Positions 3,863 through 34,430 of a DNA stretch of 47,736 nt are shown here, in pieces (position 1 is the first letter of the stretch; each line of letters opens with the position of its first letter). Origin of the DNA: Hydrolagus colliei (Eukaryota). Under the pieces are notes generated by a model. The model did not search any database. It was not told where the DNA came from and saw nothing but the letters and a program-made list of their open reading frames with translations. The stretch is taken from the NCBI GenBank assembly GCA_035084275.1, contig CM068745.1, positions 40,068,265 through 40,116,000 of the forward strand, in the 5' to 3' direction. The translations under genes and the position numbers were made by a program.

Positions 3863-3865
3863 AAT

Positions 3866-12539: not shown

Positions 12540-12885
12540 TGAACAATGGCATTCCACCATTAGCCATGAAATGAATGAGCAATTTTATTTTGGAGATTGT
12601 TAGCGAGAACTCTGAGAGAAACCCTCTGCTCTGTTCAAATCATGAAATGTACAACAACAACAACTTTGATTTATATAGTTGTACCCTGGCAATGTACCTT
12701 TAACATGTAGCTGAACAGACAAGAGCCTGGTTTAATGTCTCATTTAAATGATAGTATTTAGAACAATCCAGAGCTCCCTCAGCATGACATTGGATAATCA
12801 ACCTGGACTGTGAGTTTAAGGATCCGATGTGGGCTTGAACCCATAAGCTTCTGACTCAGAGGCAAGATTGCAGTACTATGAGATT
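12540..12885 (-). mobile_element. Deu-domain SINE with tRNA head, interrupted by a short L2 tail (about 12650-12685)
   Basis: GGTTTAATGTCTCAT (reverse complement of the Deu motif) and GGGCTTGAACCCA...TTCTGACTCAGAGGC (reverse complement of the B box/head). Confidence 0.65.
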
Positions 12886-12999
12886 GACACCGGCTTGCTC
12901 TGAGCACCTACTGGCATTCTCTATACAAATGAATCAAATACTGTACTAGGGAACCACAGATTAAAAAAATAACTAGCAAGTGGGGAGGGAAAAGCAAAA

Positions 13000-13245
13000 G
13001 GAAATTTTTGCATAAAGGATAATAGAATTATACAGTGTTGCCAAGGAAAGCCCATTGATTTCCTCGAATATTGATTTCCAGTACAATTGGGTTAACTAAA
13101 CAGCTGAATACATTTGTGGAAAAGTTATAGATTGAGAGATACAGCAATAAGGGGATTAGGTGGGATTGAGAAAACAAAAAAAAATGGGTGGGCAGTTTGA
13201 AATTAATGTCCTTACTCTGTTCCTAAAAATATGTTGTGTTCTGAA
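13000..13245 (+). mobile_element. Old CR1 3' end remnant
   Basis: TTGCCAAGGAAAG...GGTGGGATTGA...CCTTACTCTGTTCCTA...ATGTTGTGTTCT resembles the CR1 ORF2 end and 3' UTR. Confidence 0.4.
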
Positions 13246-14179
13246 TATCTTTAAAAATGTAGGGAACATTAGCTACAAAAGCATAATTATACCCAAACAG
13301 AGTTATAAAATGAGAAGACCATAATCAACTTTCCATCATCGTCATTGGGGTCTCATACTGGATCCCCAGTTGAGGAGATTGTAATAATTTCTGTTGACTG
13401 TATCGTCAAAAGTTGTGGAGGTCCAATTATTATTTGTTCACTTTGTTGGTATATACATTAATGGCACATAAATACAAATGTCTAAATTTCTGAAAGTTCA
13501 TATTCCATGCTGCAATGTTTCACCTCTGCAAATGTAATTCAGTGCTCAGATGCTTAGTTTTTTTTATTCTTCCCCTGTGAAACCTAACTACACTATATCA
13601 CATCATTCCATTACTTGCATGTAATGTATTTAGACTGGAGGAGCTTTTATTATTATTATTATTATATTTCAGGGACTGGCCAAATGCTAACCTTTTAGCA
13701 AATGGTAGGAAAAGCGAGGGAAAGTGAGTTCCCAGTAGGGCTATTCAGTGCATTAAGCCAGCATTAGAGCAAAATTCTTAATGTAGTTTAGGTAATAAAG
13801 ATAAATCTTATTTTATGTGGTGTAAGTTTTTTAATGTAGGGTTCATTTTCTGTTAGCCTTCCTATCCTATTGCATTTCTTAAAATTGGCATAATATTTTA
13901 GTTTATTATACTTATAAGCATTTACTTTATGGAAGCCGTGTATAAACCTTATTTGAATGTTATGTAAAAAATCAGGTATCAGTGTTGTTTGAAGGAAAAT
14001 TGTAGCTTTGTTAGTTGAATATAAGAGAGTGTGGAACAATAATAAGGCCACCTGGACTTTTAATCTGCCTTTGCCAAAGACAAAAAATATAATTCACCGT
14101 CTTCACCTATACCCCAAAGCCAATATATATATATATTTATAAAGGTTTGAAGCCAGGAATCTGTATTTGTTTAAGTACG

Positions 14180-14390
14180 GAGTCAAGATCCTTGTCCTCA
14201 CTTTCAGTGCCCTCCACGCACTAGCCCCTTCCGCCCTACCATCGGCTGCCGAGCTTTCAGCCTCTCTGCTCCTATGCTTTGGAACTCCAATCCACAGTCC
14301 CTTCGTCTTGGTTCCCACCTCTGCCTTCTTGCAGTCCAGTCTCAAGATTCTCTTCTTCGACCGTGCCTTGAATCGCCATCCCCATAGCGT
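14180..14390 (+). mobile_element. L2 ORF2 C-terminal fragment
   Basis: KILVLTFSALHALAP; CCCTACCATCGG...GCTTTCAGC...TGGAACTCC; LKILFFDRA. Confidence 0.75.
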
Positions 14391-14784
14391 AACATGAAGT
14401 CCCGATTTTTCCTCTCCCCCAGCATCACAAAACATATTGTGAATCATTAGAATTTGTTTGTCTCTGTTTGCATTCAACCCTGTATCCAATACTGTGCTCA
14501 TCAAAGTAATCAAGGAGATAATAGACTTGTTATGAGTGGGTTCTTAGTTTTTTTTGGACTGATTTATAAATCAAGGACATATTGAATCAAGAAAATAAAG
14601 GTTGGCTACCAATGTTGTATATGGACATGCCTGATTTTACACATCCATTCTTTATTTTTCTAAGCCCTTTATATGGCACAGCTGATCATAAGATGGTGGT
14701 TGTAGAAAATGTTATCAAGCATCCTTTGTACAACTGCACTTGCTGACTGTGCAAAGGTACTTTAGGCATGCTTCCTTCCTTTCT

Positions 14785-15030
14785 TTAGATGAGATGTTAA
14801 ACCACAAGCCTCTTTTATAGCAAGTGGAGAATTCTCTTGATGTATTGATAGATAGCCTTTCATCTTACAAAGTTGCATAGCTGAATTGGTCATTCTTGTC
14901 ATTACTGCTTGCGAGCTCCTGCTAGAGCAATCACCTGCTTTTTCTTACACAACACTTGAAATTAATTGATGTTATGTGAAATGTTTTAAGATGATTAGAT
15001 GTGATATGGGGCTATATCAAATGGATTTTT
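14785..15030 (+). mobile_element. Decayed Deu-domain SINE
   Basis: GATGAGATGTTAAACC ... GGTCATT ... GCTATATCAAATG. Confidence 0.45.
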
Positions 15031-15266
15031 TTTAGACATAATTCACTTAGGGAATGTAAGAATACTGCGATTGTATTGATCACTACTTAGACAGTAATAG
15101 CAGCTGTAATCACTGAATCGAAGAATAATATCTCTGGCTTATTTTGATGACATTAACTGATATCAAGAGATGGAGAAATCAGATGATTTTACAATTATGT
15201 GTCTGGCTTCATCTGACTAAATACTCTTGGCAATTGTTCAGAAGACCTGGGTTTGATTCCCAGGTA

Positions 15267-15537
15267 GTAATAATATTAATAATAATCCTTACATTTGATA
15301 TAGCACTTTTAATGTCTTCTATACGTCTCAAAGAGCTTTGCAGAATTTACTGTAAAGTCAGTTGACTGTATTTATGTGAACGAAACGCAGCCGCCAATTG
15401 CACAGAGCAGTGGTCCGCAAACAGTAGTGGATTGAAATAACTAATTATTATTTGTTTTTTTTAGGGATTATTATTAGTGGTGTGAAATAAGGAAACTTGC
15501 CCAAGATTTCACCCTCCCTGGAATTTAACCTAGGTCT
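15267..15537 (-). mobile_element. tRNA-derived SINE (most of body and tail)
   Basis: AATAATCCTTACATTTGATATAGCAC ... AAGGAAACTTGCCCAAG ... AACCTAGGTCT. A plus-strand head fragment abuts it at about 15243-15263. Confidence 0.8.
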
Positions 15538-15680
15538 AACCACAGAAGGCACGGCGAAATATTACGCAAGTTTCCTTTCTTCACACACTGCTGTTTACGT
15601 AGCAGGGAAATGGTTTTTAGGCGATTGGCAGATTGCATTTCCGGAAGTAATAATCCCTTCAAAAAATAACTGCATCATTT

Positions 15681-16678
15681 ATTCATAGATTCATAGAATT
15701 TTACGGCACAAAAGGAGGCCATTCGGCCCATCTAGTCTGTGCCGGCTCTTTGAAAAGAGCGATTCAATCCCACTGCCCTGCCCGCTCCCCATAGCCTAAT
15801 AGACCTGTTCTCCCTAAATAAAGATCTAATTCCCTTTTAAAAGTTGTTATCGAATCAGCCTCCACCACCTTTTCAGGCAATGCATTCCATATTCGAACAA
15901 CTCGCTGAGTGAAAAAAATTCTCCTCAGCTCCCCTCTACTTCACCTTGAAACTATTTTAAATCTGTGACCACGAGTCACAGATTCGCCCACAAGTGGAAA
16001 TAGTTTTTTTCTATTTGCCCTGTCGAAACCCCTCATGATCTTATAAACCTCTATTAGGTCTCCCCTCAATCTTCTCTGCTCCAGAGAGAATAACCCTAGC
16101 CCATCTAGCATCTCCTCATAGCTGAAGTCCCTCAATCCTGGCACCATCCTAGTAAATCTTCTTTGTACCCTTTCCAAAGTCTTCACATCCTTTCTGTAGT
16201 GTGGTGACCAGAATTGAACACAGTATTCCAGCTGTGGCCTCACCAAAGTCTTATAGAGGTTAGTCAGCACTTCCTGACTTTTGTACTCTATACCCCTATT
16301 TATAAAGCCTAGTATCTCATATGCCTTCTTAACAGCCTTGTCTACCTGTCCTGCCACCTTCAACGAGTCACTAACACAAATCCCCAGGTCTCTCTGTTCC
16401 TTCACACCATTTAAAATTTTACTATCTAGCCTATATTGCCTCCCTTCATTTCTTCTCCCAAAATGCATCACCTCACACTTCTCTGCATTAAACTTCATCT
16501 GCCATGTGTCTGCCCACTTTACCAATTTGTCTATATCCTCTTGCAGATGGCTACTATCCTCCTCACTGTTTACTATTCTCCCTAACTTAGTGTCATCTGC
16601 AAACTTGGAAACTGTACTCCGTACACCCAAGTCCAGATCATTGATGTAGATTACAAACAGCAATGGTCCCAATGGTCC
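15681..16678 (-). mobile_element. 5'-truncated CR1 LINE with intact 3' UTR and (CTATGAAT)n tail
   Basis: RT ORF, 3' UTR GCTCTTTTCAAAGAGCCGGCAC...GGGCCGAATGGCCTCC, and an octamer tail. Confidence 0.95.
15764..16670 (-). pseudogene. CR1 ORF2 C-terminal part (reverse transcriptase domains 4-7 and C-terminus) with one premature stop
   Basis: LGPLLFVIYINDL, KFADDTKL, WQMKFNAEKC, LYKTLVRPQLEYCVQFWSP. A TGA at 15941-15943 is followed in frame by SRGELRRIFFTQRVVRIWNALP...GQWD*. Confidence 0.92.
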
Positions 16679-18574
16679 CATTTGGGTCACTTAATCCATG
16701 ACTGTAACAATGGGACACATTAATACATTGCTACAGAGAAATTAATACAATGCTGTGCAGTGTAGGTGGAATGAAGTGAAAAATAATAAAATAATCTGTC
16801 GCTTAAATTTTACCCAACTCAGATATGAGGCTTGCACAGTGGTATATTTCAAATTTGTAAACATGAATTACACACAAACAGATTTTGTAATAGTAATCTG
16901 AGGTTGTATTTTTTGTACCAATCAATTTGACATCAATGCATACCTTACTACTATCGGATAAAAACAACAAAATAATAAGAAGAAGAAGAACAAAATTATG
17001 CTTGTATGGGAGGAAGACGGTCCACTTCAGGAAAGAAACAAACAACTGAAGATGCAATTGTGAATCAAAACCTATAAGAGCCGACATCAGCAAGGACCAT
17101 GATTCTTACCTTTTAATACATTGTATTGCGTTGTTCTGTGTCACAAGCACCTATATTGATCTGTGTTACATGAAAACGCTATCCTTGCAATGCTTTAGTC
17201 TCTTTGGGCATGGTGAATTTGTGTTTGCCAGTGAGAGAATTTTGGATTGGGAATAAGAAGGTTTCCCATAGTTTGTACTGTACGTACCTACTTTGAGCAA
17301 TCCCAATTCAGGTAGGAATGATCCAGGATAAAACCCCTCTATCTGTCCAAGTAAAGTATTATAACTACAAAGAAGTCTGTTACATCAGTGGACTTTCCAT
17401 TCCAGCACCAGTTATTCCTGTGACCTCTCAGAGATAATCTGTCTAATAGTATGCATTCCTTATAAAGCCAGTTCCCGGAGATGAAAGAACAGTCTTCTAA
17501 TTGAGAGCACCACCCTGTACCCAAATCTGCATTATTCTGTGTCAGCATGTACAGATTGTTTCATGTAATTTTGTACCTCCAGGGTTAGATATCCAATTAT
17601 GTTATTAACCTCTGATGTTTCATTCCCATTGTTCTTCATTGTAAAGCCGCTTGAGCTCAAAACAGCAGCAGACATTTTTCAAAGATACTAACGCAAAGGA
17701 GAAAAAAAGTACAAAATATCCAGTGGGGATAAATCAATTAGAACTATACTTGTGGCTTATTTGAGGCTGTGCTTTTCATGTTTGTGGAAGCTCCAAACCA
17801 CATAATGCATGCAGTCTATATTTTTTCTTTTTCACCTTTGAATTTCATATATTTCCACTTTTTTCTACACTTTACATACTATTCACTTGCTGATTCTCTA
17901 ATTTCTTTTTCCACGTTTGCTTTTAACATTTGGTTCTTTTCTTCTGTAAGCCCTTTCTAAATTGCATTTTTCTGAATTGTCCTTTCCTGTGAGCTGCAAA
18001 TGATAATGTTCTGAGTGCTGCTCATCACAGTAAAAAAAAATTGCTTCAGGTTAACAGCAGTAGATCCTGGATTAGAAAATTGATGGAAGTAGAGAAATGA
18101 ATCACTTTGACAACTGGATGGGACAGACGAGCAGATACTCCAAATGCAAGAAAAAAACATTTAGCCCATTCAGCATACACTTAAGGGTAATCTAATTGCA
18201 TTGGAATAGAACTGATTTTTTTTAAAAATCTTAAAACGAATGCTAACTGGTGTATGAAAAATGTTAGACTGACTTGTAAGAATGCATGTTTTGTGAATGA
18301 TTTGACTTGTGTAAATGCCAATATTTATGCTAACTCAAATACATTCGCAAAACATGGGCAGATTTTACATAAAACATAGGAAAAAGCAGATCGGCATAGA
18401 CACTGGTACAATGTGTGCAGACCATCTGGGAGCAGAACTGTGATTAGTTAAGGACATGGAATTAATATTGTGTGAAGGTGCGATACTCTGCATTTGCAAA
18501 AATCAGGCTTATTTAAGCTATCATCATTTTTAGAAACAAACAATATCAGCTAATTATTTTCACCTCATTCACCT

Positions 18575-18643
18575 CTGTTTCACCTTAGGACATCCTCCTG
18601 ACATAAACAGCGATATTCAAGTGTAATTTTTGTTGTTGTTGTT
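18575..18643 (+). mobile_element. L2 3' terminal fragment
   Basis: CACCTTAGGACATCCTCCTGACAT...AAGTGTAATTTT(TTG)n. Confidence 0.65.
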
Positions 18644-18752
18644 TTATTAACTTGCAAACTTACTGTTTAGATCTGGCCAATAGTTTTCCTCTCATTTTTC
18701 ACTGGCTTAATGTCCAACCCATCTATTTTAAGTATATGTGAAGGTCACTGTT

Positions 18753-19268
18753 GAATCCTGCAGCTCAGTTTTAGAGCACTCGCCTTACAAGCGAGAGATC
18801 TGGGTTCAATTCCTGGCAGGTTGAGATAATCCCTCAAAAAACACAATAATAAAATTGGTCATTTCAACCCACGTCTGTTTGTGGGATACTGCTGTGTGCA
18901 ATTGACTGCCACATTTCTCCCACGAATAGACAGTCAATTCACTTTACAGTATATTCTGTGAAGCGCTTTGAGACGTCGATAAGACATGAAAAATGCTATA
19001 TCAAATGCAAGGATTATTATTATATTATTATATATATTGGGTAAGTTTCCTTACCCCACATGCCTAAGACTAATCCCTCCCCCCAAAATTAAATAAATAA
19101 ATAATAATTTGGTCACATAATTCACGATTGTGTGCAAAATGGCTGTCGTGTTTCGCCTACAAATATACAGTCAATTCATTTTACAGTATATTCTGTGATG
19201 TGCTTTGAGACATCTAGAAGACTTGAAAAACACAATATCAAATGTCAGGATTATTATTATTATTATTA
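18753..19268 (+). mobile_element. Two tandem or nested copies of the tRNA-derived SINE
   Basis: One head (GCTCAG, CTCGC-CTTACAA-GCGAG, GGTTCAATTCC) followed by two Deu-like bodies, each ending in GGATTATTATT. Confidence 0.85.
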
Positions 19269-20899
19269 GATTGTTGTAAGTTGTTACGGTGGCGATGTAG
19301 TTTCCAATCTTCATATACCAGTCTCTTAGTTCCTGTCCTCATCTCTTCTGGTGGCTATGAGTGTAGATGTCAGTTCCTCCTGCCACTTGCTTTACCAGAG
19401 CAGTGACAGAGATCCAAGTTGATTCAACTCTTGTATCAAGTGGCAATTTAATTCCATAAAACAAAATACAGTGTCTTCACTTTATATTGTATGACTTCTT
19501 TATAACATTGTAATCCAATTCCCAAAAGCTTGTTCAAGAAAATAATTCACTGCTACAGAAATGTGGGATTTATAATGATAATTATGTCTTTTTACTCGTG
19601 CCAATATTTCAAATTTAATTAATGAAGCAGGAATGAAAGAAGACTTATTTTCCCCTAAAGCTCAAAAATTTATTATTCATCCATAATCAACATCCTTCGA
19701 TTCATACTTCATATTTGTCTGAATGATATACCTTACAAGGTTTTCAAATTGTCATATCAAGGGTAAACAGTAAAAATGTAACACAGCTGCTTTTCTTTGC
19801 ACTGTTTCCTATCTGTATTTGTCATCTTAAGTAGTTGTCTTGAAACAAAGCATGTTTTCTCTTTTCATAGGATAATATCACCACATATTGCATTCCATGG
19901 AATGAGATTTTTGGAATGAGGTTACAATATTTGCCATTGGATCAAGACCTCTGTATCAGCGTTATTGTAAGACCTGTTATAGAGTGAGGCAGAATACTTG
20001 AAGAGTCTTTACCTTCAGATGAATTTCCATCTATTGAAGCAGCCCATTGTCCAATAGAATCACTCAATCTATCCATTGTTCCCAAATGCTTCGTTTATTT
20101 TGTTCTTTTTTTTATTAACACATGCATGTAACTCACATTAATGGCTTTGCAGGGCATGGCCAATACTTTCTGGTAGCTCATTGTCAATGGAAAGATATTG
20201 ACTCCGTCAATGCATGATGTTTCCAACATGTTTAGAATTCTGTTGGCCTTGTATTTTGATTGCCATGTACCATAACTCCTCCCCAAAAATGCAACTGAAG
20301 GCCTGCGGCCATCCTGCCCGCCTGCTTCCTCTCTCTGATGAACCAATTCTAAAAGGCATTTCACATTCTGAAAGGCAAATGGATATCCTGACAACTGTGT
20401 CTCCCAATCTCTGGCTCCCACAGTCAGATAGTGAGCCACATGACTGATGAGAGAGAAAGGGGAATGAGAAAGAACAGCGTTTCAGGTTTCACTATCAGGA
20501 CAGACAATCAGAGCTTTGCTCGGCCACCACCAGGGTGACCGAGGAAAGATATTGTTCTCGATGCTGTGCAGTTTCCTCACAGCAACCTCCCTCTTTACCC
20601 AGTGAGAAACTTCTCTACAGCTACTCTCGCACGCACAAACACACACCACTGCAATTGCATAGCAAACACTGGTTTGCTTCATGTCTCCTCACACCATTTG
20701 CCTCAACCATTGCCATTCTGCCCCCATTCTATGAAGCTCCATTCCCGAAGTCCCTCGAACTTCCTCCTTCCTCTCTTTCAAGGCATGTCATCATTTCTCC
20801 ATTGCGGAACCCTCAACTCCCATCCCCTCTCTGAGTGCCCAGGTGGCAGTGACAAGCATTTGAGATTTCCTCCTGATAATAATAAAAATAATGAGAATA

Positions 20900-21018
20900 T
20901 CATTATATTCTTTTGGAGGGATTTATTATCAGGCATGTGGAGGAAGGAAACTTGCCCCTGATCTGCCTGGAATTAAACCCAGGTCTCTAGCCTGTGAGGC
21001 GAATGCTGTAATTACTGG
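20900..21018 (-). mobile_element. tRNA-derived SINE, 5' half
   Basis: GGCATGTGGAGGAAGGAAACTTGCCC...AAACCCAGGTCTC. Confidence 0.7.
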
Positions 21019-21148
21019 TTTTGTTTATAATAATGATGATGATGTGAAAAGGGAGCTGTATGAATATGCTATTTTTTCTGGAAGGAATCACAAAAATATT
21101 GCTTGTGCCATCCACAGATGTTTCTCCTGGCACCCAGCCCTCAGCATT

Positions 21149-21450
21149 TACAACAACAAAATTACATTTTTAGAGCGCCTTTCATCTTGGGAGGATGTCC
21201 CAAGGTACTTAGCAGTCAAGTTGGGACCCAAGCAAGGGGGAGGGGCAAGGTAGCAGGGAGGGGCGGGAGAGACTTCAATGGGGATGGAGTGTTGGGAGGG
21301 CAGCAGAAGGCACGATCGAAGAGGAGATTCTTGAGACCAGCCTTGAAGGAGGCAAGGGATGAAGCGAGGTGAAGGGACTGTGGGATTGAGTTCCAGAGTG
21401 CGGGGGAAGAGAGGCTGAAAGCCCGTGCATTGATGGTAGGACGGGTAAGA
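21149..21450 (-). mobile_element. L2 LINE 3' region
   Basis: Nearly colinear with 6558-6870 (tail, GGAGGGCAGCAGAAGGC, CTTGAGACC, GAGTTCCAGAG). Confidence 0.85.
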
Positions 21451-22867
21451 CGGCTAATAATTTAGGAAGTACAGTATTTAACAAGTATTTTGTTATTTCA
21501 ATTCAATGATGATTACTGATGTAATCTTTTTTAAAACCCTGCTTACATATTTCCTAGGTGTACAGGTAGTTAAATTTGTTTTATTACTTTCATTTTAATG
21601 CCTTAGTGATATTTTACACCACTTACCAAACAATGTATGGATTTTTGTAAATTCAGCACTGTTTGACTTAAAAGCCTTTGGCTTCACTGACCTCCTTGCT
21701 GTGTCCATTGAGTGCGGACATTACTGTTAATGGATTATATTGACTCAGTGAAAGGATAACCAGCAAGATAGAGGATGGTCAATACCTTTCCATTTAATCT
21801 TAATTAGATTAACACCAGTTCAAGTCTTGATTGATCCTATTAAAGGCATTCAGAATGTGTAGGTCATTGCTGTGCTTCTGAATGGCCAGAAATGTGTTGA
21901 GGTCTGGAAGAGGTTCTTTCTGTGTTGTTTGTAAATGAATGAGAGAATAGATCTGTCAAATCACATTTTATGCCATAAATAAAAGGAAGAAACTTGTAAA
22001 TCAGTTTAATAATTTGAATATTTATTGTAATCTTCAGCTAGCATCAGCAATGATGTGTGAGGAGGACATTAAAGTATTAGTGGCATTTTATTTTCATGAA
22101 ATCTACACTGTTTGAATCTTAAACTCAACCTATATCAAATAATAATGAATTCTCATTCAGATTCTCTGCCTTTTTTTCATTTTGCAGTAAGAAATCCCAA
22201 ATTTCACTCTCCATCATAGTTTATCCTCTTTCTCTATTGAACAGGTCCAACACCTTTTTCTACGATTATGGTCTCGTTCCCTGGACATCAATCTGACACC
22301 TTCCCCATTTGGCCATTATTGCCCTTAACTAATCCGGATTCTATCTGACATACCTATCTGCTTCAGGTCTAAGAATCCCAGTTGGTTTTCCTCTTTCTTG
22401 ATCAGCAACACAATGGCAACATTACTGCTATTACTGCATTACTCGAATTACTTACTCACCACAGTCTTGTATTTGAAGCTGCAATGTGCTGTCTGTGGTT
22501 CTAAAAGGTTTCTGGGCTATATGTGGAGTTTATTGTCCTTTGATTATTTTGGCTTGTTAATGTAGTTCTTCAAAATATAGGATTTTTTCCCCCATTCTTT
22601 CAGAAACCTTTTAGAACCATAGAAGAAACACTATGAAAAACTGAGTGTTTTTGCAATTTAGTCCAGAGAGAGAGGAGATTGTGACCATTAAGAGTTATCC
22701 CTCAGAAAAGGTGTTTTATCTCAGTTAGATATTCAAGCAATATTTAGACAATTGCTTGATGTTTAGACCAAGATTCATCATTACTTTCTTGGTTAAAATT
22801 CAAGACCCTATTAGATGTATATAACATATCTGATCGTGTATATTGTTCTGTAAAGGTCTTTCAAATG

Positions 22868-22909
22868 GACTAATTGCTTCCCCTTTTTTTTCTCCAATTC
22901 TAGGTAAGT
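22868..22909 (+). promoter_or_regulatory. Composite 3'ss/5'ss (candidate recursive splice site)
   Basis: Branch-point-like CTAAT (22870-22874), an AG-free pyrimidine-rich tract, TAG (22901-22903), then consensus GTAAGT (22904-22909) directly after. Confidence 0.55.
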
Positions 22910-23491
22910 GGTGAAGTACATGGCTTCCTTGTTTCCTGCAGAAAAGAAGCCAGTCAGATGCAGTGGAATGCATTGTTATTCAGGAGGTATTCACAGTAAG
23001 GGATGTTTTTTCTGCTTTCTGTTGCAAGAGAACCATGCAAGGTACTTACTCGAATATTGATTCTGTGATGCAAATGGGTTGTCAGCTGCTCTGCTACCCA
23101 TGAGATGTAGTGTGAGATATTGTATTGCATTAAGTGTTATCGGTGTCAAGATAAGGTAATAAGGAACATGTTTACTAATTTCCTGATTCCCCCTCCCTCC
23201 CACGCCCACACACATGTTCCCAAGAAGTGGAAGAATATATACATATACGAAGGATCAAAAATGTTACATTTATGATGGTCTCAGATTTAATATAGATAGA
23301 CAAAACTTTGGAGCTGCGCTGGTTTGGGGTTTTCCGCTTTGAAGAATTTTCTGGTTTGATAGCTCGAGTTGGACCACAATCATGCAAAACAAGTCTTGCA
23401 TCTGAAAGCAATTCATTGTCCACGTTGAAATATCCATATGGTTTCAAAATGGAATAAATGCATTTTCACTTGGAAACCATTCTGGTCCTCT

Positions 23492-23753
23492 CTGTTAATA
23501 ATCTGGCAAAGAATTGTGGCTTTTTTAAAAAAAAAGTCAAATGATGAAAAGAAAATCTATCTCATGGATTTCCCCCTAGCCCCCCTTCCACCCAAATCAC
23601 CTCTAATTATTGAAGAATTAATAAAAAAGGAACAGGTAGTGTACTCTCTTTCCAATGACTCTTCTCTGTCCGTGTATCACAAATGTATCACATTTCTTTT
23701 CATCATTTGACTTTTTTTTAAAAAGCCACAATTCTTTGCCAGATTATCAACAG
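23492..23753. mobile_element. MITE-like/foldback element with about 63-bp terminal inverted repeats
   Basis: CTGTTAATAATCTGGCAAAGAATTGTGGCTTTTTTAAAAAAAAAGTCAAATGATGAAAAGAAA (23492-23554) versus its near-perfect reverse complement (about 23693-23753). Confidence 0.75.
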
Positions 23754-25529
23754 TTCTCAGTAGTTATTCTCATCTTTATTCTCAGTAGTTACTGCAACAT
23801 CAGTTAAAGAGAAAGGGAATTGCTGAAGGCTTTTTATGTCAACCATGTGTTCCGTGCTTTGCTGCTAAACTGGATCTCCTTCCTTTAGCATTGTGATAGT
23901 CAAGCATTTAAATGCCCCAATAGAGAATATAATCTGTAAATAATGTACTTACTTAAATATCCGCCAGCAGTGTGAATGCCTGTGGCTGTAATTATTTTTG
24001 CTTCAGCAATGTCGTTACTAGTGCACCTAGTAGAAGATCCCAGCTATTGAATTATTCCCCCTCCTTAAACTGAGAGTTCAATAAGTGATTGAGAGAATAT
24101 GTTTAATTGTAATCATGTCCTCAAATTATAGCACACAATAATTATAAATGCTGCTGATCACCATTTCTTCATAATTGGGATTGGTTGATGTGACAGAAAG
24201 ATCACAATAGAAATAATGTTTCCCAGTGCTGTAAATCTAATAGAAGGTTCAGATGGGAGTTTAGATAAGAAGTATGAAATTGTAGCTCACAAGCTCATGA
24301 TGCAAGCGTTGAAGTTCAGTTCCTTAAAGAAAAGTGAATTATTGTAATCAGTGTTGCTTTGGTTCAAAAAAAGCACCAACTGTAAGGTACATTCCATTTG
24401 TATAGGAAGATCTTAAAGGAGCACTAATCAGCAAGAATACCTATTCCACAGCTAACACAAATAAATGAATGCAATGAAGTAACTCTATTCAGAAACAACA
24501 TCAGATAAACCTAATTGGCTCATATAGTTTGTAAGTAAATAGCTGAAAGGCTGCTAAAAATTGCTTCTCTATCTCTGTAAAATATTTATAATTGCTTGAT
24601 TCGTGAGTTATATTTTCAAGATGAAAGGATACAGCTTTGACAGTTCTATTTTATTCCCTCCCAAACCAACTAAAGGAAACACGACAAGGAATATAAAATG
24701 TTTGTGCCTCAGTGCAAGATTAATTGTGTACTTTGAATGTAGCAAAATTCTCTAAAAGCACTGGGAGGACTATACCAGAAACACAAAAACTTCTCAGGCC
24801 ATGCCAGAAGTAACTAGATTATTGGAGTTTCCGTGGGCGTTCATTTAAGATTCAATTTCCCAGGGTCATTGAAGTGAACAAGATTTTTAGGGCATTTATA
24901 TTGCACAGTTGGCATTGATTTGATATGCGTTTCCCATGGAATCAGCAGAAACTGTATAACTCAATTCAGAAGAGTGGTAGGAGGTGGCTTGCTGAGCTTT
25001 GTAAAGCCTGTAGTATAACAATACCAATGTTTTCAGCAATACCAATGTTTTGAATTTAAACATGACTACCATCAGGAGGCTCCCAGGTGGTGGATGATTC
25101 TCCAGTTTATTTTCTATTGCACAAGGAGCTTTCTGGCTTCCGCTCACTGCTTTCTATAATTATTGTAATTGGATCTATGAACGTATTGGTGTGGATTGGG
25201 GCTTGAATGTGCAAATCAACACTCTAGCACAACGATTGGTGTGGATGAGCATGTTGATATCAACTTAAAAAGAGAACTAAAAGTAAAATCGTTAAACATT
25301 TTATCCATGACATGGTGTGTGATGATGTGGTGAATTATAAACTGAGAATTTGTTAAAGTGTTTAACAGGGATCCCCACAGCTTGTCCAGCTTGGACCACC
25401 CTACCAGTTAGAGCTTTGGCTTGCAGGGTTAACAGTAGCTGAGTGGAATTCTCCCAGCCTCTAGTGTCTGGTCTACCATTACAGATCATGCCTATGAGTC
25501 AGGCTGTGCATTTGGGGCCTATGGGGCCT

Positions 25530-25588
25530 TGAACTCAGGTCTCTTGTTTGCAAGGTGAGTGCTCTAACCACTGAGCTACAGGACTCCA
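25530..25588 (-). mobile_element. SINE tRNA-like head only
   Basis: Reverse complement reads GGAGTCCTGTAGCTCAGTGGTTAGAGCACTCACCTTGCAAACAAGAGACCTGAGTTCAA. Confidence 0.8.
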
Positions 25589-25892
25589 TAATACTCGATC
25601 AGCCTGCTCGGTTACATCCAAGCATCCTGATTGAATAATCATTCAAGCATGCCAGTTAACAGGTCCATCTGCAAATCCTTGGATTATATACTGTAACGGC
25701 TATCTGTGTGAGACATAAGGTACGATGATGCTCACCCTAATTAATATTATTCATCTCTTCAAAATGTCATGGACTTCAAACCTACTGCAGATCAGACCTC
25801 CATGTCCAACATTTTGATTAAATACAAAACATTTGTTACTGTTAAAATTGTAATCGTTATTTAAGGATGTTGTTCGCAACATTGTTTGTTCT

Positions 25893-27090
25893 AAAACAAC
25901 AACAACCAAATTACATTTGTATAGTCCCTTTCGCATCAAGAGTACATCCCAGGGCACTGGACTGCCAAAGATTTGGACGCGAGCTGGGGTTGGGAAAAGA
26001 AGAGTTGTACTGCAGGTGTAGGAGTAGGCCAAAGATGAGGGTCTTAAGATGGGCTTGAAGAAGGCAAGAGAGAGGATGAGGAGAAGGGACTGTGGGCTAG
26101 AGTTCCAATGGGCAGGGTAAGAAAGACTGAAAACCTGATCACCGATAGTGGGTTGAGCAGGACACAGGACTTGAAGCAGGCCCGAGCCTGTTGAGCGGAG
26201 GGAGTGGTCGGTTTGGATTTAGCAGGTCACAGAGGTAGAGGGAATAAGCCCATTAATTGCTTTGAATGCATGGGCAACAACACAGATAGGGAGCCAGTGA
26301 AGCTGGGTGAGGATGGGGTGCTAGGTTCACAAAGCCTGGTGGGGAAATGACATGAGATGCTAAGTTTTGGAGTTGGGGAAAGACAGAACGGGTTGGTACC
26401 AAGAGGGAGCAAAAAGACATTGAAGAGAGGACCAAGGATAGAGCCCTGAGGAGACAGCCATTCATGGACACACAGCGGATATGATGGGAAAATTAAGATT
26501 TGAACCAAGGAAGGACTGAGAGGAGAGGCGGTGGAGGAGGATAGAGTAGTCGATAGTGTCTAAGATGACAGATAGGACAAGAAGACAGAGGGAGCCCCCG
26601 TCACATTGAGTGAACCGCTCCAATCGGAATTCCGTGCTGCCCGCAATACAGAAACAACAACAAAATTACATTTCTAGATTGACTTTCACATCGGGAGGAT
26701 GTACCATGGAGTTGAAACAGGTCAAACCCACAAAGGACATTTTATCCACCTGTGAAGGGAGTTCCCTCTGTCTCCTTGTCTTCTCTGCCTCCTTAGACAT
26801 TGTTGAACCCCTCCAATTGCAAGGGGGAGGGTTGGGCTTCAGAGAGTGAGTGGTGGGAGAGGAAGGAGTGAAGCTGATGAGCAATGATTCGAACAGTACT
26901 TTACAAAGAAAGGGGAGATGGTGCTGTAATTGGAGAGCAGAGATGGGTCCAGGGAAGATTTTTTTGAGGATGGAGGCTGTTTTTAAGGGGGTAGGAATGT
27001 TGCCATCGGACAAGGAGAAGTTGATGATGTCTGTTAATATAGGGACATGTTGATGGAGTTGGCAGGTAAGGAGATGGGTCAAGTGCAGTG
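25893..27090 (-). mobile_element. Rearranged L2 LINE (RT remnants through the 3' tail) with an internal inversion
   Basis: Minus strand: PILTDIINFSLSDGNIPTPLKTA..LPFLCKVL, CDGGSLCLLV..DTIDYSILLHRLS, PQGSILGPL, then the 3' tail. Plus strand (26612-26810): EPLQSEFR..NTET and KDIL..CEGSSLCLLV. Confidence 0.8.
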
Positions 27091-27867
27091 ATTGCAGTTT
27101 GACTTAACACTGAGCAAGCACAAAGGAATTTTTTTGGCTGGGGTTTCATCCATCTGAATAAATTGAAATAAAAACAACGGTATTCATTTTTGCTGGTTTA
27201 TTAAATATCTATCTCAAATATCCTCCACAGCAATATCGCAATCTTTTACAGGTTCCATTTACAGGAGGAAATCTTCACCTTTCAGCTTTATGCTTGTTCT
27301 TTCTTAACTGTGAAGAATAATATTGTTACCGGCAGTGATTACTGCTGTTGTCATGTTATTCATCATATGTGTCAATGTTGGCCACACAAAGCTTTTACAG
27401 TAGCTGCACCACTGAGTTCAAAGGTCAAACGGATTTGAACTGGGTGTGTCTGATTGTGCCAGTTTGAGATTGAGGCTGCTTTCATGATAAATGGAAAAAC
27501 TTTGTTTTTTGAGCAAATCAGTTCTGAACGGATTAGCCTGTTTTTGATCCAGAGCTACATTTTCATCCGTGCTGTTGACTTTTGCTTTTGTGTTAGGTCT
27601 GAGGTTTTACTGTGACATACTTCAGTTACCTGAGATAAAATCAACTCTAATACCTGAACCAATGTTTCTTTATTTATCTCACCATATGAACAATTTACCG
27701 CAGCATTTTGTGATGTTTTTGTAGTTGATTTTGAACTTAAAATTCATAATGTACATAGAATAGAATTGGAAAGAGCTTGTAAAAATCTTGTGAATAAAGA
27801 ATGGTTTGTCCTCTTTGGATTTTATTTCATGTTTGTGATTATCTTGACAGATTCCACATCTAACAAC

Positions 27868-27913
27868 CATGTACCTTTCTCCATCGGCACTAGCTGATGG
27901 AGAAAGGTATATG
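27868..27913 (+). other. Isolated 21-bp hairpin with a 4-nt loop
   Basis: CATGTACCTTTCTCCATCGGC-ACTA-GCTGATGGAGAAAGGTATATG: 19 Watson-Crick plus 2 G-U pairs. Confidence 0.85.
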
Positions 27914-28106
27914 TAATTGTTTATATTGAAGTTCTGTTCTTTACATTAAAATGCAAATTTCCATCGGTTCTAATTTGCAGGTTCAGTTCTTATATGTGGG
28001 TTCAGTTAACAATCCATCTGCTAAAATCAAATATTGGATTAACAGAGGGATTTATAAGGGCACCCTTCATTGTTTGTTCAATCAGTAAAATGATTTAATA
28101 ATACAG

Positions 28107-28395
28107 TAATAATAATCCTTGCATTTGATATAGCACTTTATCACATCTTTTAGACATCTCAAACCACTTCACAGCATATACTACAAAGTGAATTTACTGT
28201 GTATTTGTGGGCGAAATGCGGCAGCCATTTGCGCATATTAGTGTCCCATAAACAGTCATGGATTGAAATGACCTTTATTTGTGGGATTATTATCATATAT
28301 GTGAAGTAAGGAAACAAGCTTTCACCCTGCCTGGAAGTGAATCTAGGTCTCTCGTTTATAAGGTGAGTGCTCTAATCACTGAGCTACAGATCTCC
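28107..28395 (-). mobile_element. Full-length tRNA-derived SINE
   Basis: Head (reverse complement of GTAGCTCAGTGATTAGAGCACTC), Deu-like body and (ATT)n tail. Confidence 0.85.
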
Positions 28396-29209
28396 ACCAG
28401 TAATTCTGTAATTCTTTGCATTTATTGTTATTTATATATGATGCAGGACCTCAGTTTTGTAGTTGCACATGGTCAACCCAACGTTTCAAATTTGATGTGG
28501 GTTTTTAGCCCAATCTTGAAATTTAATATCAATGTTTATATTTTGGACATAAGAAATCAGAATTATTCAAAGCTCCACTTCCTCTTCTTACCCAATTAAT
28601 ATAACATTAATTTCAGTAGGTGAACTGGAATTGATATAATCGCTCTTTTTAGTATGTTCATATTAAGATGGTATAGAGAGGTTGAGTTCCATCACAATCC
28701 ATTGTCTTTTGAATGCACCATGCACATTGTGCAAAGAATGTCCTCATAAATGCATCAAATATGAATCTTAATCAATAAATAAGAAGACAAATATTTTACA
28801 TTATACTTTTTAAAATCATAGCAAGTGAAATGCATCTTAAAATAACTGACAATGAACACTCATATGTACTCAGCGTGTTATTCTTTGCCCTATAGATTAT
28901 TACACACATAAGGATTTGAGTGTGAAAAGCTTTGCAGATAAAGAAACAGTTTGATAAATGTCTTGGGGCTTATTGCAGTGCAAGCAATCACAATGCAGGT
29001 GAAGCGCTTGGGCAAAATGCATGGCACAGTTAACATTAAAGTTTATCTTAAATTACATGGTCAATGTATTAGTATTGTAGTTTATTCAACCTATTAGTCT
29101 TTCAGTTCGGTCTACTTGGTGTATAAGCTCTCTTTTATTTAAAAGTTATTGTATCCTGTCACAAATGGAGTTCCTCTTCAGTTTCATCAAATTTGAAATA
29201 AATGAATAG

Positions 29210-29350
29210 TTTTCTAACGAAAAGTCATTGACCTGAAACATTAACTAATTTTCCTCTGTCTCCATGGATGTTGCCTTATCTGCTGCATGTTCCGAGTGAC
29301 TTCTGTGTTTATACCAGCATTTCCAGCATCTGTAGTGTTTTGCCCTTTGT
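29210..29350 (+). mobile_element. Older copy of the Penelope-derived unit
   Basis: CTAACGA-AAAGTC-ATT-GACCT-GAAACATT ... TCTCCATGGATGTTGCC ... TTTCCAGCATCTGTAGTGTTTTGC is colinear with 1291-1425. Confidence 0.65.
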
Positions 29351-31339
29351 TTAATCGGTTTCTGACAGACTCAATTTTACAAATTCAACTGCATTATAAT
29401 GAGGTCTTGAAGTGGTAGAATTTAAAGGTAAGGTATCCTCACTGAAACTGGAAGCTGCATCTTTAAAAGGTTAACCTTTACAAAATCAGCACATTTAATG
29501 GTTTCAAAGAAAAGAGAAAAGGTGGTCATTCATGCTGTAAGCATGCTTTGCTTATTACAGTGCAACTGCTTATTGCCACATAAGTCCCTTAAGTAAAAAG
29601 CAAACAAACTTGCATTGACCTTTTATAAGATATTAATTGAGGGGCTCTAGCATAATCTCAATTGCCTTGTCATCCACTAAAACCCAGGTTATTTCAACAC
29701 AAGATCCCATTTGCAGGAGCTGGTGGGGATGAGTTTACACGATCTCACATACCTGAGTGAAGAGGATCCCAGGTCATGGTTCTCCCATTTAGAGCATACC
29801 CGGACTGTGTGACTGTGCTCACAATCTAATCTAGCTGTTGGTTGTTACAAAGGAAAACATAATCTGCACCAAGTCATCTGACTTGGCTCAAACTTCTCAG
29901 AAACATGGTCAGTGGCCATCTTTGGCCGATTGGAACGCATAGTTGCCCTAAAGAAGCTGTGATGTCAGATAGCTTAACTGCCACATCTTTTTCCCTCAGG
30001 CACAGATGTGGAATGCTGCAGTATGTAAATTTTGATTAAGTTGTTGAGTTAGCCTTGGATTTATAGAACTAGTATTCATATTTGCCACAATCCATTACTT
30101 TGATGCTTTCAAAGGAACATGATTTATTTTAGTCACAATAAATGTCAGAAAGAAGTAAGTAAAATATTTTTCAACCTTTATTGAATTCCATACTCTGGGA
30201 CAATGCATTTTTATTTTACATTTAAAGCAGAACTTGATTTATATTCTATGCAAAGGAAAATCTAGTCCTTTATATTCTAACAATTGTCAGGATATATGAA
30301 TTTCAGTTTAGGTGCTAAAAGATGAAAAGTTCCAAGTATGGTGTTAAACGCGCAGGGAGAGTCTTCAAATATCTGCAAGTTGATGCTAATTAATTTACTG
30401 ATTCCAGCAACAACTTGCAACTTTACACAGCAACCTCACATAGGATAGTGCCTGTGAAACATTTTATATCATATTCCCAGTACAAACTTTTTATATTATT
30501 GAACAGAATATAATTTTCACAAACAAACCTGCTACTTTGTGTTACTTTGTGTGTTAATTCTCCATAAAGAGTACTTAAATCACAGACCCTCTTCCCCGAA
30601 CAAAGCATCTTTCAGAAATTGATATATCTGCACAAATTTTTGACAAGAGATTAATCCTTTCCTCATTAAGGACTAATCAACATCATAACAAAATGTAGCC
30701 CAATTGTGAACTAAGTTGTTTTATAAAATAAAAGTAATTAAAAGACTTGTCTATGTGGTTACAAAGGAGGAAACATTGTACACAGTTGATCAAGAGATGT
30801 ACTGTATAGGTATAGAGTTACATAATTCAAATAAATAATTATCTTCTGGATTCAACAACAATCAATTTCATTTACTTTACACCTTTCTCATGTTCACCAT
30901 CTTGAAGTGCTGTACTTAGATCATGAAAGCAGCACCAAAGTAATATAACATAAAACAATAGGGCCAAATGGCCACTCATTTGCGCCGCTTATTTCTATCC
31001 ATCATTCCGCTATATTTTTGTTAAATTTTGATTGCTTTTTTAGAAGTAATGCTCTCAATTTTCTAATTTGGTTGCCGCCATAGCCCAATCACTGATGATT
31101 TCTTTTAGACCAAGTGTTCACGTTATCCAGGTCAATTGCTTCTTTTCTTCTGGTCGATAATCTTCTGTCTAATTTCTGCAAAGAAGATTGTGATATTTTA
31201 ACTGGCTATTTCCTGCAACTGATGTCTCAGGTGAATCTCAATGCTAGTCTGAATACCTACATTTTTGTGCTAGTTTTGCTCAGGAGGCAGCACTCTTACC
31301 CCAGGATCGGAACTTGGACCACAGGCTGCAAACTCAGAA

Positions 31340-31510
31340 GCAACAACAACAACAACTTTATTTATAGAGGGCCCTCCATGTCGGGCGGCATGCCTGCGCT
31401 TCACAATGGCAGAGCCCGAGGCCAAGTCAGGGGAAGGGGGAAGGTGACCGTAGGTATGGTCGAAGAGAAAGATCTTCAGGCATGACCTGAAGATGGGGAA
31501 GGAGGTGGTG
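31340..31510 (-). mobile_element. L2 LINE 3' end
   Basis: (AAC)n tail; the minus ORF contains LKIFLFDHTY. Confidence 0.75.
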
Positions 31511-31564
31511 TACTCCAATCAGCATCAACCATTGTAATATTGTTGGTGTTAGTCTTCATATGAA

Positions 31565-31790
31565 CCATTAACCAGATGCCCCATCTGCCTGGCAACAGTT
31601 AAAGCTAAAGATCCCATGACACTCTTTGACAGGGAAGGGTGTTCCCTGGCCAACAATCCTATGGATTAATTGGTCATTAATTTCATGGGTGTTTGTGCGA
31701 CCTTGTTGAAGCAAATAAATGGCACGTTCTCTTACAAGAAACATTAGATGTGACAGTAATTGCATTGGAAGGTCTTTAAAACATTTCAAT
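31565..31790 (+). mobile_element. Deu-domain SINE fragment
   Basis: TAAAGATCCCATGACACT, GTTCCCTGGCCAAC, TGGTCATT...GTTTGTGCGACCTTG. Confidence 0.6.
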
Positions 31791-31799
31791 GTCTTTTTT

Positions 31800-32070
31800 G
31801 TTATGCAGCCATGTGCCCTGCCTCGGCCGCACTATCATTGATGGGTGGGCCTTCAGTCACTCTACCCACACCCGCTGAGACTCCATCCTTATTCATCCGC
31901 CTCAAGGCCTCGTCTTTCACCTTGCTTTCGATTAACCTTCTACCCCCACCCCCAACCCTCTTGATTCCTACTCCTAGCTCAGGTGTGGAATACTGTCTGC
32001 CCAGCACCTTGGGACATCCTCCGGAAATGAAAGGTGCGACACAGATGTAATTGGGTTGTTGTTGTTGTTA
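31800..32070 (+). mobile_element. L2 LINE 3' region
   Basis: GCCTTCAG, CGCCTCAAG, CAGCACCTTGGGACATCCTCC...GAAAGGTGC...(TTG)n. Confidence 0.75.
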
Positions 32071-34309
32071 TAGTCAACAGCTATAGAATTGGTGCATTTA
32101 TTATGGAGCAACTATGCTTTAATGATGATCTAATGATCTCACTCTCTTTATTTTCATACAATGCCATTTTGTTCATTAGTTTCAAATATTTTCATAATTT
32201 CTTGTCCTTGGGAAATTATAGGCATCAATAACACTGGATTAATTGTAACATAACAAATCTATTTTAAAAACAAATCAAAACCTATAAAGCAATAAAAAAA
32301 AGATCACATTTGTCATTTATTAGTCATCCTTGGTATGTATATTAGTAAAGTGATTTTTTTTAACACCCAGAACAAATTTATCAATAGAAAAGCCAATGAT
32401 AATATTTCATTTAACATTAATAGTCACTTATACAATAATAGTGATGAGGATCAATATAGAATGTATCTCATTCGTGACAAACATTGAATAAACCAAAGTA
32501 TTACAGGCATGCCTAGTTATAGCTCACAAAACATTCAATCCTCAGTAGCTAAATTAAAAATATAATACATGCAACAAGAATGAAACTTGCACAACCATGC
32601 TGTGGGGGAATCCACCTATATTTGAGGGGGATGAGACATATGCGGAAACCCATCACCATGCTTCCGAGTATCCAAACTGAACTAAAAATTCTGTGCATCC
32701 CAGCTACACAGGAAATTCCAGCAAAACATTATTGGAATGGAATGCAACTCCACTTATTCAATGTACAGTACATGAGAAAGTCTGTATAGATATTCCCTGA
32801 TATCAAACAATTATTTTCAAACTAAAAGGATACTCTTTATTCCCCACTTCTGCCAACTATCATAGATTTATATTCCAAATGATCTGTATGCATATTGATC
32901 TAAATTGAATGTGCTTTAGTATTTTGAAGTGCTAGTTCACGTACTCCTCTTTCCTCCAAAGAAGCACATGTTACAATTCTACAATGTTTCCAGTGCATCA
33001 ATGCTGTTTTGATGCTACCAAATTAAATAATATTGCAGTCTCAAAAAGTTACAAAAACATCTTTTGACTTGTGATCAAAGGTTATCAAACTGCAACCTTA
33101 AGTTTAGTCAAATTTGATAATACCTTTATAATAACCTGAATGAAGCCTTCAATTACTCATGAGTAGTTACGACAATTTCTATTTCATGTCATTTTATAGA
33201 TAAATTTAGGATTACTCGTCCCTTGACCTTGTTTTATTTGAAGTAAAACTCATCTGCCTCTGATCACCAGATCTGCCTAATTGGTTCATAACTTCTTGAA
33301 ACCTATTTATGCACTCTATATTAGTCTCCTACCCACATAGCTTGTTATTATCAGCACATTTTTAAATATTCCAAAATGTACTCTGCTCTGAGTTATTTAA
33401 GAATAACACAATCATCAGGAGACCAGAAAAGACTTGTTTCACTTTAGTCACTGTCCCAATTCCAGATAGTTTTATTTACATTTAACATTTGTTTTCATTG
33501 TGCATTAATTTCTGTTTGTTGCTGAAGAATTTTCAATCCAGAAAACATTTGATATCTCTCAAAAAGATTGTTCTGCCATCAGAAATACTGATTTCATAGC
33601 ACATATATATGTTTGTACAGTTCAAATTTATATTTCTAACAAATCAGAGTCAGAAGTTTAGATCTGATACGTGATTAAAGTACTCTCATTCCAATCTAAC
33701 TGACACATTTGTTTTTGACTGAATGGAGTTGGAAGCTACTGCAAGCCTCAATAACAGAATAGATGATGTTAATGCACCATTTACAGTGAAAAGATAGGAT
33801 AAGGTGTACCTTTTGTGGATTTTTCAATTTTTTTTCAGATTTAATGTAATTTCTTTCTTATTCATGACTTTTGGTAGATTTCCTAATGTTAAATTATTAC
33901 CTTCAACCTGCAAACAGAATTTTTTAGTAAATTGTAGTCTGTGCAAACATGAATAGATAAAACCACTGTGTTGAATTAAAATTAGCCATATTGGTCTGAA
34001 AGTCCTCATTTTATTCTCCAGTTGGCTGTGGTCTTGCTTTTCACAACCAAGGCAGCAATAGGTTAACATTGCATCTTCAGACTAGCTTCTGACTGATCCT
34101 AATGTGATAACTAGTGTCAAGTGTAGTTACTATATTTATAGAAACACATGGCACCATTTGTGATCTTTAATGCCCATTGGAAAAGGGGGACCTTAGCTTA
34201 ATGTTTGATTCAAACATGCGTCATCACCAGTAAAATAGCCTCCCTCTTTTCTGCAATAGTGTGGGTAAGTCTATAAATAAATCCAAACTATCTGTTCAGT
34301 GTCCCTCTT

Positions 34310-34430
34310 CAACAACGATAACAACAACATTACATTTGTATAGCACCTTTCACATTGGGAGAACGTCTCAAGGAGCTGGACAGACAATGTTCCACACCTG
34401 AGCTGTGGGTAGGGATTGGGGATGGTACCT
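34310..34430 (-). mobile_element. L2 3' terminal fragment
   Basis: AACAACAACATTACATTTGTATAGCACCTTTCAC. Confidence 0.75.

What the first reader, a model, noticed from the sequence alone, without database searches (positions are those of the whole stretch)
22868..23000. Candidate recursive splice site (ratchet point) with RS-exon
Seen: branch-point-like CTAAT about 30 nt upstream, a long AG-free pyrimidine tract, and TAG joined directly to a perfect GTAAGT. Possible downstream donors lie at 22987, 22996 (ACA|GTAAGG) and 23156. A 92-nt exon (22904-22995) would frameshift and has immediate stops in two frames. The surrounding 21.5-25.5 kb is unusually poor in recognisable SINEs and LINEs. Known: vertebrate recursive splicing uses AG|GTAAG sites followed by a cryptic RS-exon in very long introns of neuronal genes (for example CADM1/2, OPCML, NTM, ANK3, HS6ST3). 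Inference: the window lies in a giant plus-strand intron processed stepwise. The host gene cannot be named from this sequence.
Basis: partly seen in the sequence, partly recalled or inferred. Interest (0 to 1): 0.7.

Follow-up and report, generated by a model that had tools for sequence, protein, structure and literature searches.

The report
Recursive splice site in chimaera LSAMP
A back-to-back "intron end / intron start" signal sits on the coding strand inside the 824-kb first intron of the brain adhesion gene LSAMP in a probable chimaera (ghost shark), apparently the same intron that mice cut out in steps, so it is likely an old stepping-stone splice site of a known kind, although no RNA was available to show that it is used.

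Summary
The motif is real: CTAAT 22870-74, pyrimidine tract, TAG|GTAAGT at 22903/22904. The window lies on the sense strand of LSAMP, 200 kb into the 823,891-nt intron between exons 1a and 1b. Mouse Lsamp has four recursive splice (RS) sites in what I infer is the same intron (PMC8797253). This intron holds four outstanding sense-strand motifs and none antisense, but the fourth lies in a SINE and the statistics are modest. Splicing to exon 1a would rebuild AAG|GTAAGT; retention gives a stop at the fourth codon. No RNA could be examined, relatives were too close to show constraint, and no site-to-site match to mouse was found. Sites 1 and 2 share 8 of 9 bases after GTAAGT (best of 5,786 background sites; noticed post hoc). 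The scan earlier noted an RS site in ANK3 of this genome and one in camel LSAMP. Verdict: likely RS site (0.85), new member of a known kind; interest 0.38.

The parts
1..47736 (+). Whole window lies inside LSAMP intron 1a-1b (G000:C6:39,890,907-40,714,797; 823,891 nt)
   Evidence: Window = C6:40,068,265-40,116,000; exon 1a at L054:2579-2644 matches the N-terminus of P0007, 15 of 22 identical; exon 1b at 40,714,722-883 and later exons by P0001; intron ends
22870..22874 (+). Branch-point consensus CTAAT, predicted branch A at 22873
   Evidence: Sequence; only YTRAY match in the 60 nt before the site; use inferred
22874..22901 (+). Polypyrimidine tract within a 46-nt AG-free zone
   Evidence: 18 of 20 pyrimidines; mouse Lsamp RS sites have 0.90-1.0
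22901..22903 (+). 3' splice site TAG (RS acceptor)
   Evidence: Sequence
22904..22909 (+). Partial 5' splice site GTAAGT; would become AAG|GTAAGT after splicing to exon 1a
   Evidence: Exon 1a ends in AAG; the same 9-mer scores MaxEnt 11 for mouse Lsamp RS1
22910..22918 (+). 9-nt stretch shared (8 of 9) with the second RS motif 244 kb downstream; holds the TGA (22912-14) that is in frame with exon 1a
22904..22995 (+). Candidate cryptic RS-exon (92 nt with donor 22996; alternatives 83, 138, 208, 252 nt)
   Evidence: Donor list; which donor is used is untested
22987..22992 (+). Downstream donor GAG|GTATTC (the -1 G is A in run X7)
22996..23001 (+). Downstream donor ACA|GTAAGG; site 2 has ACA|GTAAG after 83 nt
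23156..23161 (+). Downstream donor AAG|GTAATA (252-nt option)
21447..25379 (.). SINE/LINE-free interval around the site
   Evidence: single-copy depth over 21,900-25,131 in run X7

Best explanation
The motif lies on the sense strand 200 kb into the 824-kb intron between exons 1a and 1b of LSAMP and is likely the first of three or four recursive splice sites through which transcripts from the 1a promoter lose that intron in pieces. Shown: host gene, strand, intron ends, the motif, the other motifs, and the stop in frame with exon 1a. Inferred from vertebrate RS (PMC6224609, PMC8797253): (1) a cryptic exon is defined between TAG 22903 and a downstream donor (22996 is my first guess); (2) exon 1a is spliced to 22904, releasing a 200-kb lariat branched at A22873; (3) the junction rebuilds AAG|GTAAGT, closer to consensus than any downstream donor and than exon 1a's own AAG|GTAGGA; (4) this donor is spliced onward to the next site (C6:40,335,396, then 40,475,465, perhaps 40,660,251) and finally to the internal acceptor of exon 1b (40,714,798), leaving no trace. 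If the cryptic exon is kept, translation stops at its fourth codon, so such RNA would be non-productive.
For: Host and strand; GAP43 on the minus strand and a BTB exon beyond it fit the recalled LSAMP-GAP43-ZBTB20 order. Mouse Lsamp has 4 of the 20 RS sites found in cortex, three checked by RT-PCR. They lie 278-1,222 kb after an upstream exon ending in AAG, inside the 1.6-Mb 1a-1b distance. Whole intron held (823,815 of 823,815 nt scanned): YAG|GTRAG with 15 or more of 20 pyrimidines and an AG-free zone of 25 or more occurs at 4 of 45 sense and 0 of 44 antisense sites. By a crude matrix the four score 11.1-15.2, the next sense site 8.0, the best antisense site 7.8. None reaches 11 in 2.14 Mb of other strand-sequence held. 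A paralogous IgLON gene on C37 has one such sense motif (4,546,294) and none antisense in its presumed 1a-1b intron, as mouse Ntm and Opcml have one RS site each. The site is in unique sequence (0 hits) and unchanged over 22839-22918 in 3 of 3 runs that span it.
Against: No junction, lariat or saw-tooth evidence. Strand asymmetry alone is weak: 4 of 45 against 0 of 44 gives about p = 0.06 (hand calculation); the score cut of 11 was set after seeing the scores, and at a cut of 9 it is 5 sites in 1.16 Mb against 3 in 2.14 Mb (p about 0.11, hand calculation). The fourth motif lies inside a SINE (76 repeat hits span it), which undermines the tidy four-to-four match and the p = 0.008 position test. 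Mouse RS-exon primers match no site better than the negative-control primer (11-13 of 21-22 against 11-12 of 22), and mouse RS-exon lengths (202, 48, 132, 57) match none of the five options. No excess conservation: X7 2 of 232 against 88 of 3,941; X9 13 of 555 against 44 of 2,393 (only the longest pieces were listed). Exon 1a was found by a 22-residue match.
Confidence: 0.85

Rival explanations
1. Chance or dead motif: an AT-rich 824-kb intron throws up one good acceptor next to a good donor, and it is never used.
For: Loose pattern not enriched in the window; acceptor ranks 22 of 2,831; a SINE copy produced a motif of equal score at site 4; no excess conservation seen; site 1 is the weakest of the three unique-sequence sites.
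Against: Sense orientation in the intron where mouse has RS sites; 0 comparable motifs antisense; exact branch consensus at -31; long repeat-free interval.
Confidence: 0.07
2. A real but ordinary cryptic or poison exon: the acceptor is used, a downstream donor wins, and the exon stays in some 1a transcripts to damp LSAMP 1a output.
For: Stop at codon 4 in the exon-1a frame; five downstream donors; mouse has 22 RS-like cryptic exons and low-level inclusion of all four Lsamp RS-exons; a ray LSAMP isoform (P0005) has another 5' exon.
Against: RS-like cryptic exons in mouse have weak rebuilt donors and strong downstream donors; here the rebuilt donor is the consensus AAG|GTAAGT and no downstream donor is.
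Confidence: 0.06
3. Exon of a separate sense transcript nested in the intron (non-coding RNA or an extra LSAMP promoter), with the GTAAGT start incidental.
For: None direct; very long introns often hold such transcripts (general knowledge).
Against: No Pfam match above cut-off in 300 of the 373 filtered ORFs within 100 kb of the window; no Rfam match in 21,400-25,400; two more unique-sequence motifs of the same build in the same intron.
Confidence: 0.02

Closest known systems
Mouse Lsamp RS1-RS4 (mm10 chr16:40,262,266; 40,655,810; 40,979,498; 41,206,970), Moon and Zhao 2022, PMC8797253 (text parts 1-3 of 5 and supplements 1, 3, 4, 5 read; figures not seen)
   Same: Same gene; same intron by inference (upstream exon ends in AAG, 1a' exon between, 1.6-Mb 1a-1b distance); AG|GTAAGT motif; 0.90 pyrimidine fraction within the mouse range; several sites in one intron; rebuilt donor AAG|GTAAGT as for RS1.
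   Different: Intron about half as long. Sites at 0.24, 0.54, 0.71 (0.93 in a SINE) of the intron against about 0.17, 0.42, 0.62, 0.76 in mouse (hand calculation with 1.6 Mb). No primer or exon-length match, so which mouse site corresponds is unknown; RS1 is likeliest by order. No RNA evidence here.
Vertebrate RS with cryptic RS-exons (Sibley et al. 2015: not held; known through passages of PMC6224609, PMC5126111, PMC6110456 and bioRxiv 10.1101/2025.08.14.666599)
   Same: Long first intron of a brain gene, strong acceptor followed by partial donor, downstream donors, early stop codon.
   Different: Reported for human, mouse, rat and zebrafish in what I read; this is a probable holocephalan, and sites 1 and 2 share an extra 9-nt stretch that I saw described nowhere in those passages.
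RS sites of mouse Ntm and Opcml (PMC8797253 S4)
   Same: IgLON paralogues with the same 1a/1b two-promoter layout (PMC5288359, passages) and an RS site 238-288 kb after the upstream exon; the C37 paralogue here has one such motif.
   Different: One site each instead of several; no exon similarity between site 1 and the C37 motif.

Membership tests
Vertebrate intronic recursive splice site | AG|GT junction, typically AGGTAAGT, with pyrimidine tract and branch point | tested here: met
   compare. MaxEntScan itself was not run.
Vertebrate intronic recursive splice site | Sense strand of a very long first or second intron of a long brain gene | tested here: met
   LSAMP intron 1a-1b, 823,891 nt, plus strand
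Vertebrate intronic recursive splice site | Upstream exon rebuilds a donor that outcompetes the downstream donor | tested here: met
   AAG|GTAAGT (MaxEnt 11) against five non-consensus donors; judged by sequence only
Vertebrate intronic recursive splice site | Cryptic RS-exon bounded by a downstream donor, usually with a premature stop | tested here: inconclusive
   Five candidate donors within 252 nt and a stop at codon 4; the donor used is unknown
Vertebrate intronic recursive splice site | Evolutionary conservation above the intronic background | tested here: inconclusive
   Unchanged in 3 of 3 spanning runs, but relatives differ by only about 2% and no excess is seen; mouse primers do not match
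Vertebrate intronic recursive splice site | Junction reads from the upstream exon, saw-tooth coverage, lariats | not testable with these tools
   Only DNA contigs could be laid
Orthologue of a named mouse Lsamp RS site (RS1-RS4) | Alignable RS-exon or flank | tested here: inconclusive
   Only 20-22-nt pieces of the mouse sites were available; no match above control
RS-like cryptic exon (Moon and Zhao class) | Weak rebuilt donor with strong downstream donor | tested here: not met
   The reverse holds here

The most novel reading that the evidence does not exclude
Stepwise removal of the IgLON 1a-1b intron is as old as jawed vertebrates or older, and its stepping stones are born and multiplied inside the intron: sites 1 and 2, 244 kb apart, descend from one duplicated RS module or share an unrecognised 9-nt enhancer after GTAAGT, and site 4 is a newer site made from a SINE copy (1 of 34 copies has the AG|GT).
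Probability: 0.25. Interest if true: 0.62.

Novelty: new member of a known kind. Interest (0 to 1): 0.38.

Why it matters
If used, it places recursive splicing of LSAMP intron 1a-1b in the common ancestor of cartilaginous and bony fishes, and shows that several sites were kept, or re-made, in an intron half the mouse length. That bears on the open question of whether RS is needed for long-intron removal (called unsubstantiated in bioRxiv 10.1101/2025.08.14.666599, abstract). The exact junctions given here make a one-afternoon RT-PCR test possible. The shared 9-mer and the SINE-borne motif give testable leads on how RS sites arise. The mechanism itself is known.

Tried and rejected
No RNA holder listed for 22760-23160 (11 runs, none on record as RNA); this says nothing on expression. 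I-set, C2-set_2 and sulfotransferase family searches did not hit the host; the HS6ST-type exon on C6 is 4.5 Mb away on the minus strand, so that gene was rejected. A splice-matrix exon hunt and Pfam scans of 300 of 373 filtered ORFs (789 before the GC filter) within 100 kb found no coding exon. The four-to-four position match with mouse (p = 0.008) was dropped because site 4 is in a SINE. Mouse primers gave no orthology. Duplication of a whole module is not shown: beyond +15 the similarity of sites 1 and 2 is not significant (600 and 295 of 5,786 background windows score as well; upstream about 1,500 of 5,786), the local alignment is only 7 nt, and blastn finds no hit; the wide collinearity check failed to include sites 2 and 3. 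The strict genome-wide pattern (18 matches, 42 for the control) does not match site 1 and gives no background for it. The 31 human LSAMP rows of PMC6110456 S1 cover only introns after exon 1b (file cut when stored, files 13-15 not searched). No look-alike DNA among the scan's other windows. No Rfam match. Sibley 2015 and its supplements were not held and may contain cross-species alignments or low-confidence LSAMP sites. Literature searches: recursive splicing + elephant shark 0 papers; + shark 1 general review, listing only; recursive splice + teleost + long introns 0; one search was too loose (2,160 papers, none of the 15 listed held the term).

Full report
Observation. Downstream donors would give exons of 83, 92, 138, 208 or 252 nt. 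A loose pattern is no commoner in the window than in shuffles (4 against 3.4) and the acceptor ranks 22 of 2,831 AGs, so the motif needs context to mean anything.

Host gene. The window is G000:C6:40,068,265-40,116,000 and the 400 nt around the site gave one match in the genome. No coding exon was found within 100 kb. GAP43 lies at 41.24 Mb on the minus strand and a BTB exon at 41.65 Mb on the plus strand; the recalled order LSAMP-GAP43-ZBTB20 predicted LSAMP upstream on the plus strand. Ig exons were then found at 41.066-41.075 Mb; one is 94% identical to Callorhinchus milii LSAMP and 81-85% to shark and ray LSAMP (9 hits of 14 candidates), so the genome is probably a holocephalan (inference). 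That protein places exon 1b at 40,714,722-883 and the later exons out to 41.128 Mb. The N-terminus of a sawfish isoform places exon 1a at 39,890,843-906 (15 of 22 residues), next to a GC-rich stretch. Exon 1a ends AAG|GTAGGA in phase 1 and exon 1b has an internal acceptor at 40,714,798 that restores the frame, the 1a + 1b'' layout described for mouse (PMC5288359, passages). The intron is 823,891 nt and the site lies 200.3 kb into it, on the sense strand.

The whole intron. All of it was fetched and scanned. Of 45 sense and 44 antisense YAG|GTRAG sites, four sense and no antisense sites have 15 or more pyrimidines in 20 and an AG-free zone of 25 nt or more: S1 40,091,168 (this finding), S2 40,335,396, S3 40,475,465, S4 40,660,251. 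A crude matrix ranks these four first among 2,926 sense AGGT sites (11.1-15.2; next 8.0), while the best of 3,043 antisense sites scores 7.8. They would cut the intron into 200, 244, 140, 185 and 55 kb. The statistics are modest: about p = 0.06 for 4 of 45 against 0 of 44, and 0.005 or 0.11 for the matrix depending on a cut of 11 or 9 (hand calculations; the cut of 11 was chosen after seeing the scores). S1-S3 are unique sequence; S4 lies in a SINE whose other copies mostly lack the AG (1 of 34 copies has it), so S4 is either chance or a recent gain.

What is known. Moon and Zhao 2022 (PMC8797253; text parts 1-3 of 5, supplements 1, 3, 4, 5) found only 20 RS sites in mouse cortex, four of them in Lsamp, three confirmed by RT-PCR. 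That they lie in the 1a-1b intron is my inference: the upstream exon ends in AAG as exon 1a does here, a 60-nt alternative exon lies between RS2 and RS3 as expected for rodent exon 1a', the last site is 1.22 Mb from the upstream exon and 1a-1b is 1.6 Mb (PMC4409639, passages), and the paper's downstream primer resembles the end of exon 1b here (by eye). A motif picked blind from raw sequence thus falls, in the right orientation, in one of the few vertebrate introns known to be spliced recursively. This is the main support. Site-to-site orthology is not shown: primers match no better than the control, exon lengths differ, and the position test was dropped because it relied on S4.

Mechanism. 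By the model in PMC6224609 (passages), an RS-exon is defined, spliced to the preceding exon, and rebuilds a donor that competes with its own downstream donor. Here exon 1a supplies AAG, giving AAG|GTAAGT (MaxEnt 11 for the same 9-mer), while none of the five downstream donors is consensus. The exon would therefore be removed with the next segment. If it stayed, the exon-1a frame reads three codons and stops at 22912-14; S2 and S4 stop at codon 3, and S3 runs 36 codons and would shift the frame. All splicing steps are inferred.

Conservation and RNA. Eleven runs hold the stretch, all DNA or unlabelled. In four runs laid from three studies, two labelled as other organisms, 22839-22918 is unchanged in the three whose contigs span it; the fourth has a gap at 22904-12. 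These relatives differ by only about 2% in unique intron sequence and the site shows no clear excess (X7 2 of 232 against 88 of 3,941; X9 13 of 555 against 44 of 2,393, longest pieces only). The site sits in a 3.9-kb SINE/LINE-free gap, 11th of 768: weak indirect support.

Extras. S1 and S2 both read TCTAG|GTAAGT and then share 8 of the next 9 bases; among 5,786 background GTRAG sites none matches S1 this well and one matches S2, and a pattern built on it has 3 matches in the genome, two of them S1 and S2 (control 1). Both also have ACA|GTAAG after 92 and 83 nt. The IgLON paralogue on C37 has one strong sense motif at 4,546,294, between exon 1b and a candidate exon 1a at 4,692,361 that was picked only as a signal-peptide-like exon.

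Novelty and verdict. Searches found no paper on RS in cartilaginous fishes (uninformative; Sibley 2015 and its supplements not seen). The scan had already noted an RS site in ANK3 of this genome and one in camel LSAMP (unchecked AI notes, not support). The feature works like, and on sequence criteria belongs to, the vertebrate RS sites; the defining RNA evidence is missing. Likely RS site, 0.85; new member of a known kind; interest 0.38.

Noticed in passing
G000:C6:40,335,396 (L073, L124), 40,475,465 (L087): Two further unique-sequence RS motifs in the same LSAMP intron, both scoring higher than this one; S3 has a GTG|GTAAGT donor after 106 nt and an open 36-codon frame after exon 1a.
   Followed up: partly
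G000:C6:40,660,251 (L106): RS-like motif inside a SINE copy; 1 of 34 copies has YAG before GTAAG, the commonest reading differs at three adjacent bases. Possible exaptation or chance. The family looks like a V-SINE/HE1 element (name recalled, not tested).
   Followed up: partly
G000:C37:4,546,294 minus (L144); candidate exon 1a at 4,692,361 (L159); exon 1b near 4,355,900 (L125): IgLON paralogue (OPCML- or NTM-like, not determined) with one strong sense RS motif and a strong donor about 70 nt on; its acceptor ends in the same AATTCTAG as site 1.
   Followed up: partly
G000, 18 places listed: Strict Y12-N-YAG|GTAAGT occurs only 18 times in 1.0 Gb against 42 for the reversed control: depleted, and a short list of further RS candidates.
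   Followed up: no
window 23492-23753 and 22492-22623: Two small inverted-repeat elements (arms 42 and 23 nt, 95-96% complementary) flank the site; the first has repeated ends in related genomes and looks like a MITE.
   Followed up: no
window 15944-16690 minus: LINE reverse-transcriptase fragment, RVT_1 E 1.6e-9; CR1 type by recall.
   Followed up: partly
L025:190-573 (C6:41,070,190-573, inside an LSAMP intron): BED zinc-finger fragment (E 1.1e-4), probably from a hAT transposon.
   Followed up: partly
window 47080-47188: Perfect tandem array, 18-nt unit, 6.1 copies.
   Followed up: no
G000:C1:37,938,778-793 minus (L122): Third genome match to the shared pattern; it has no pyrimidine tract and looks like a chance match.
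   Followed up: yes
P0005 (ray LSAMP isoform X3): Has an N-terminus unlike both 1a and 1b, suggesting another 5' exon in rays; no convincing match in the part of the intron held.
   Followed up: partly
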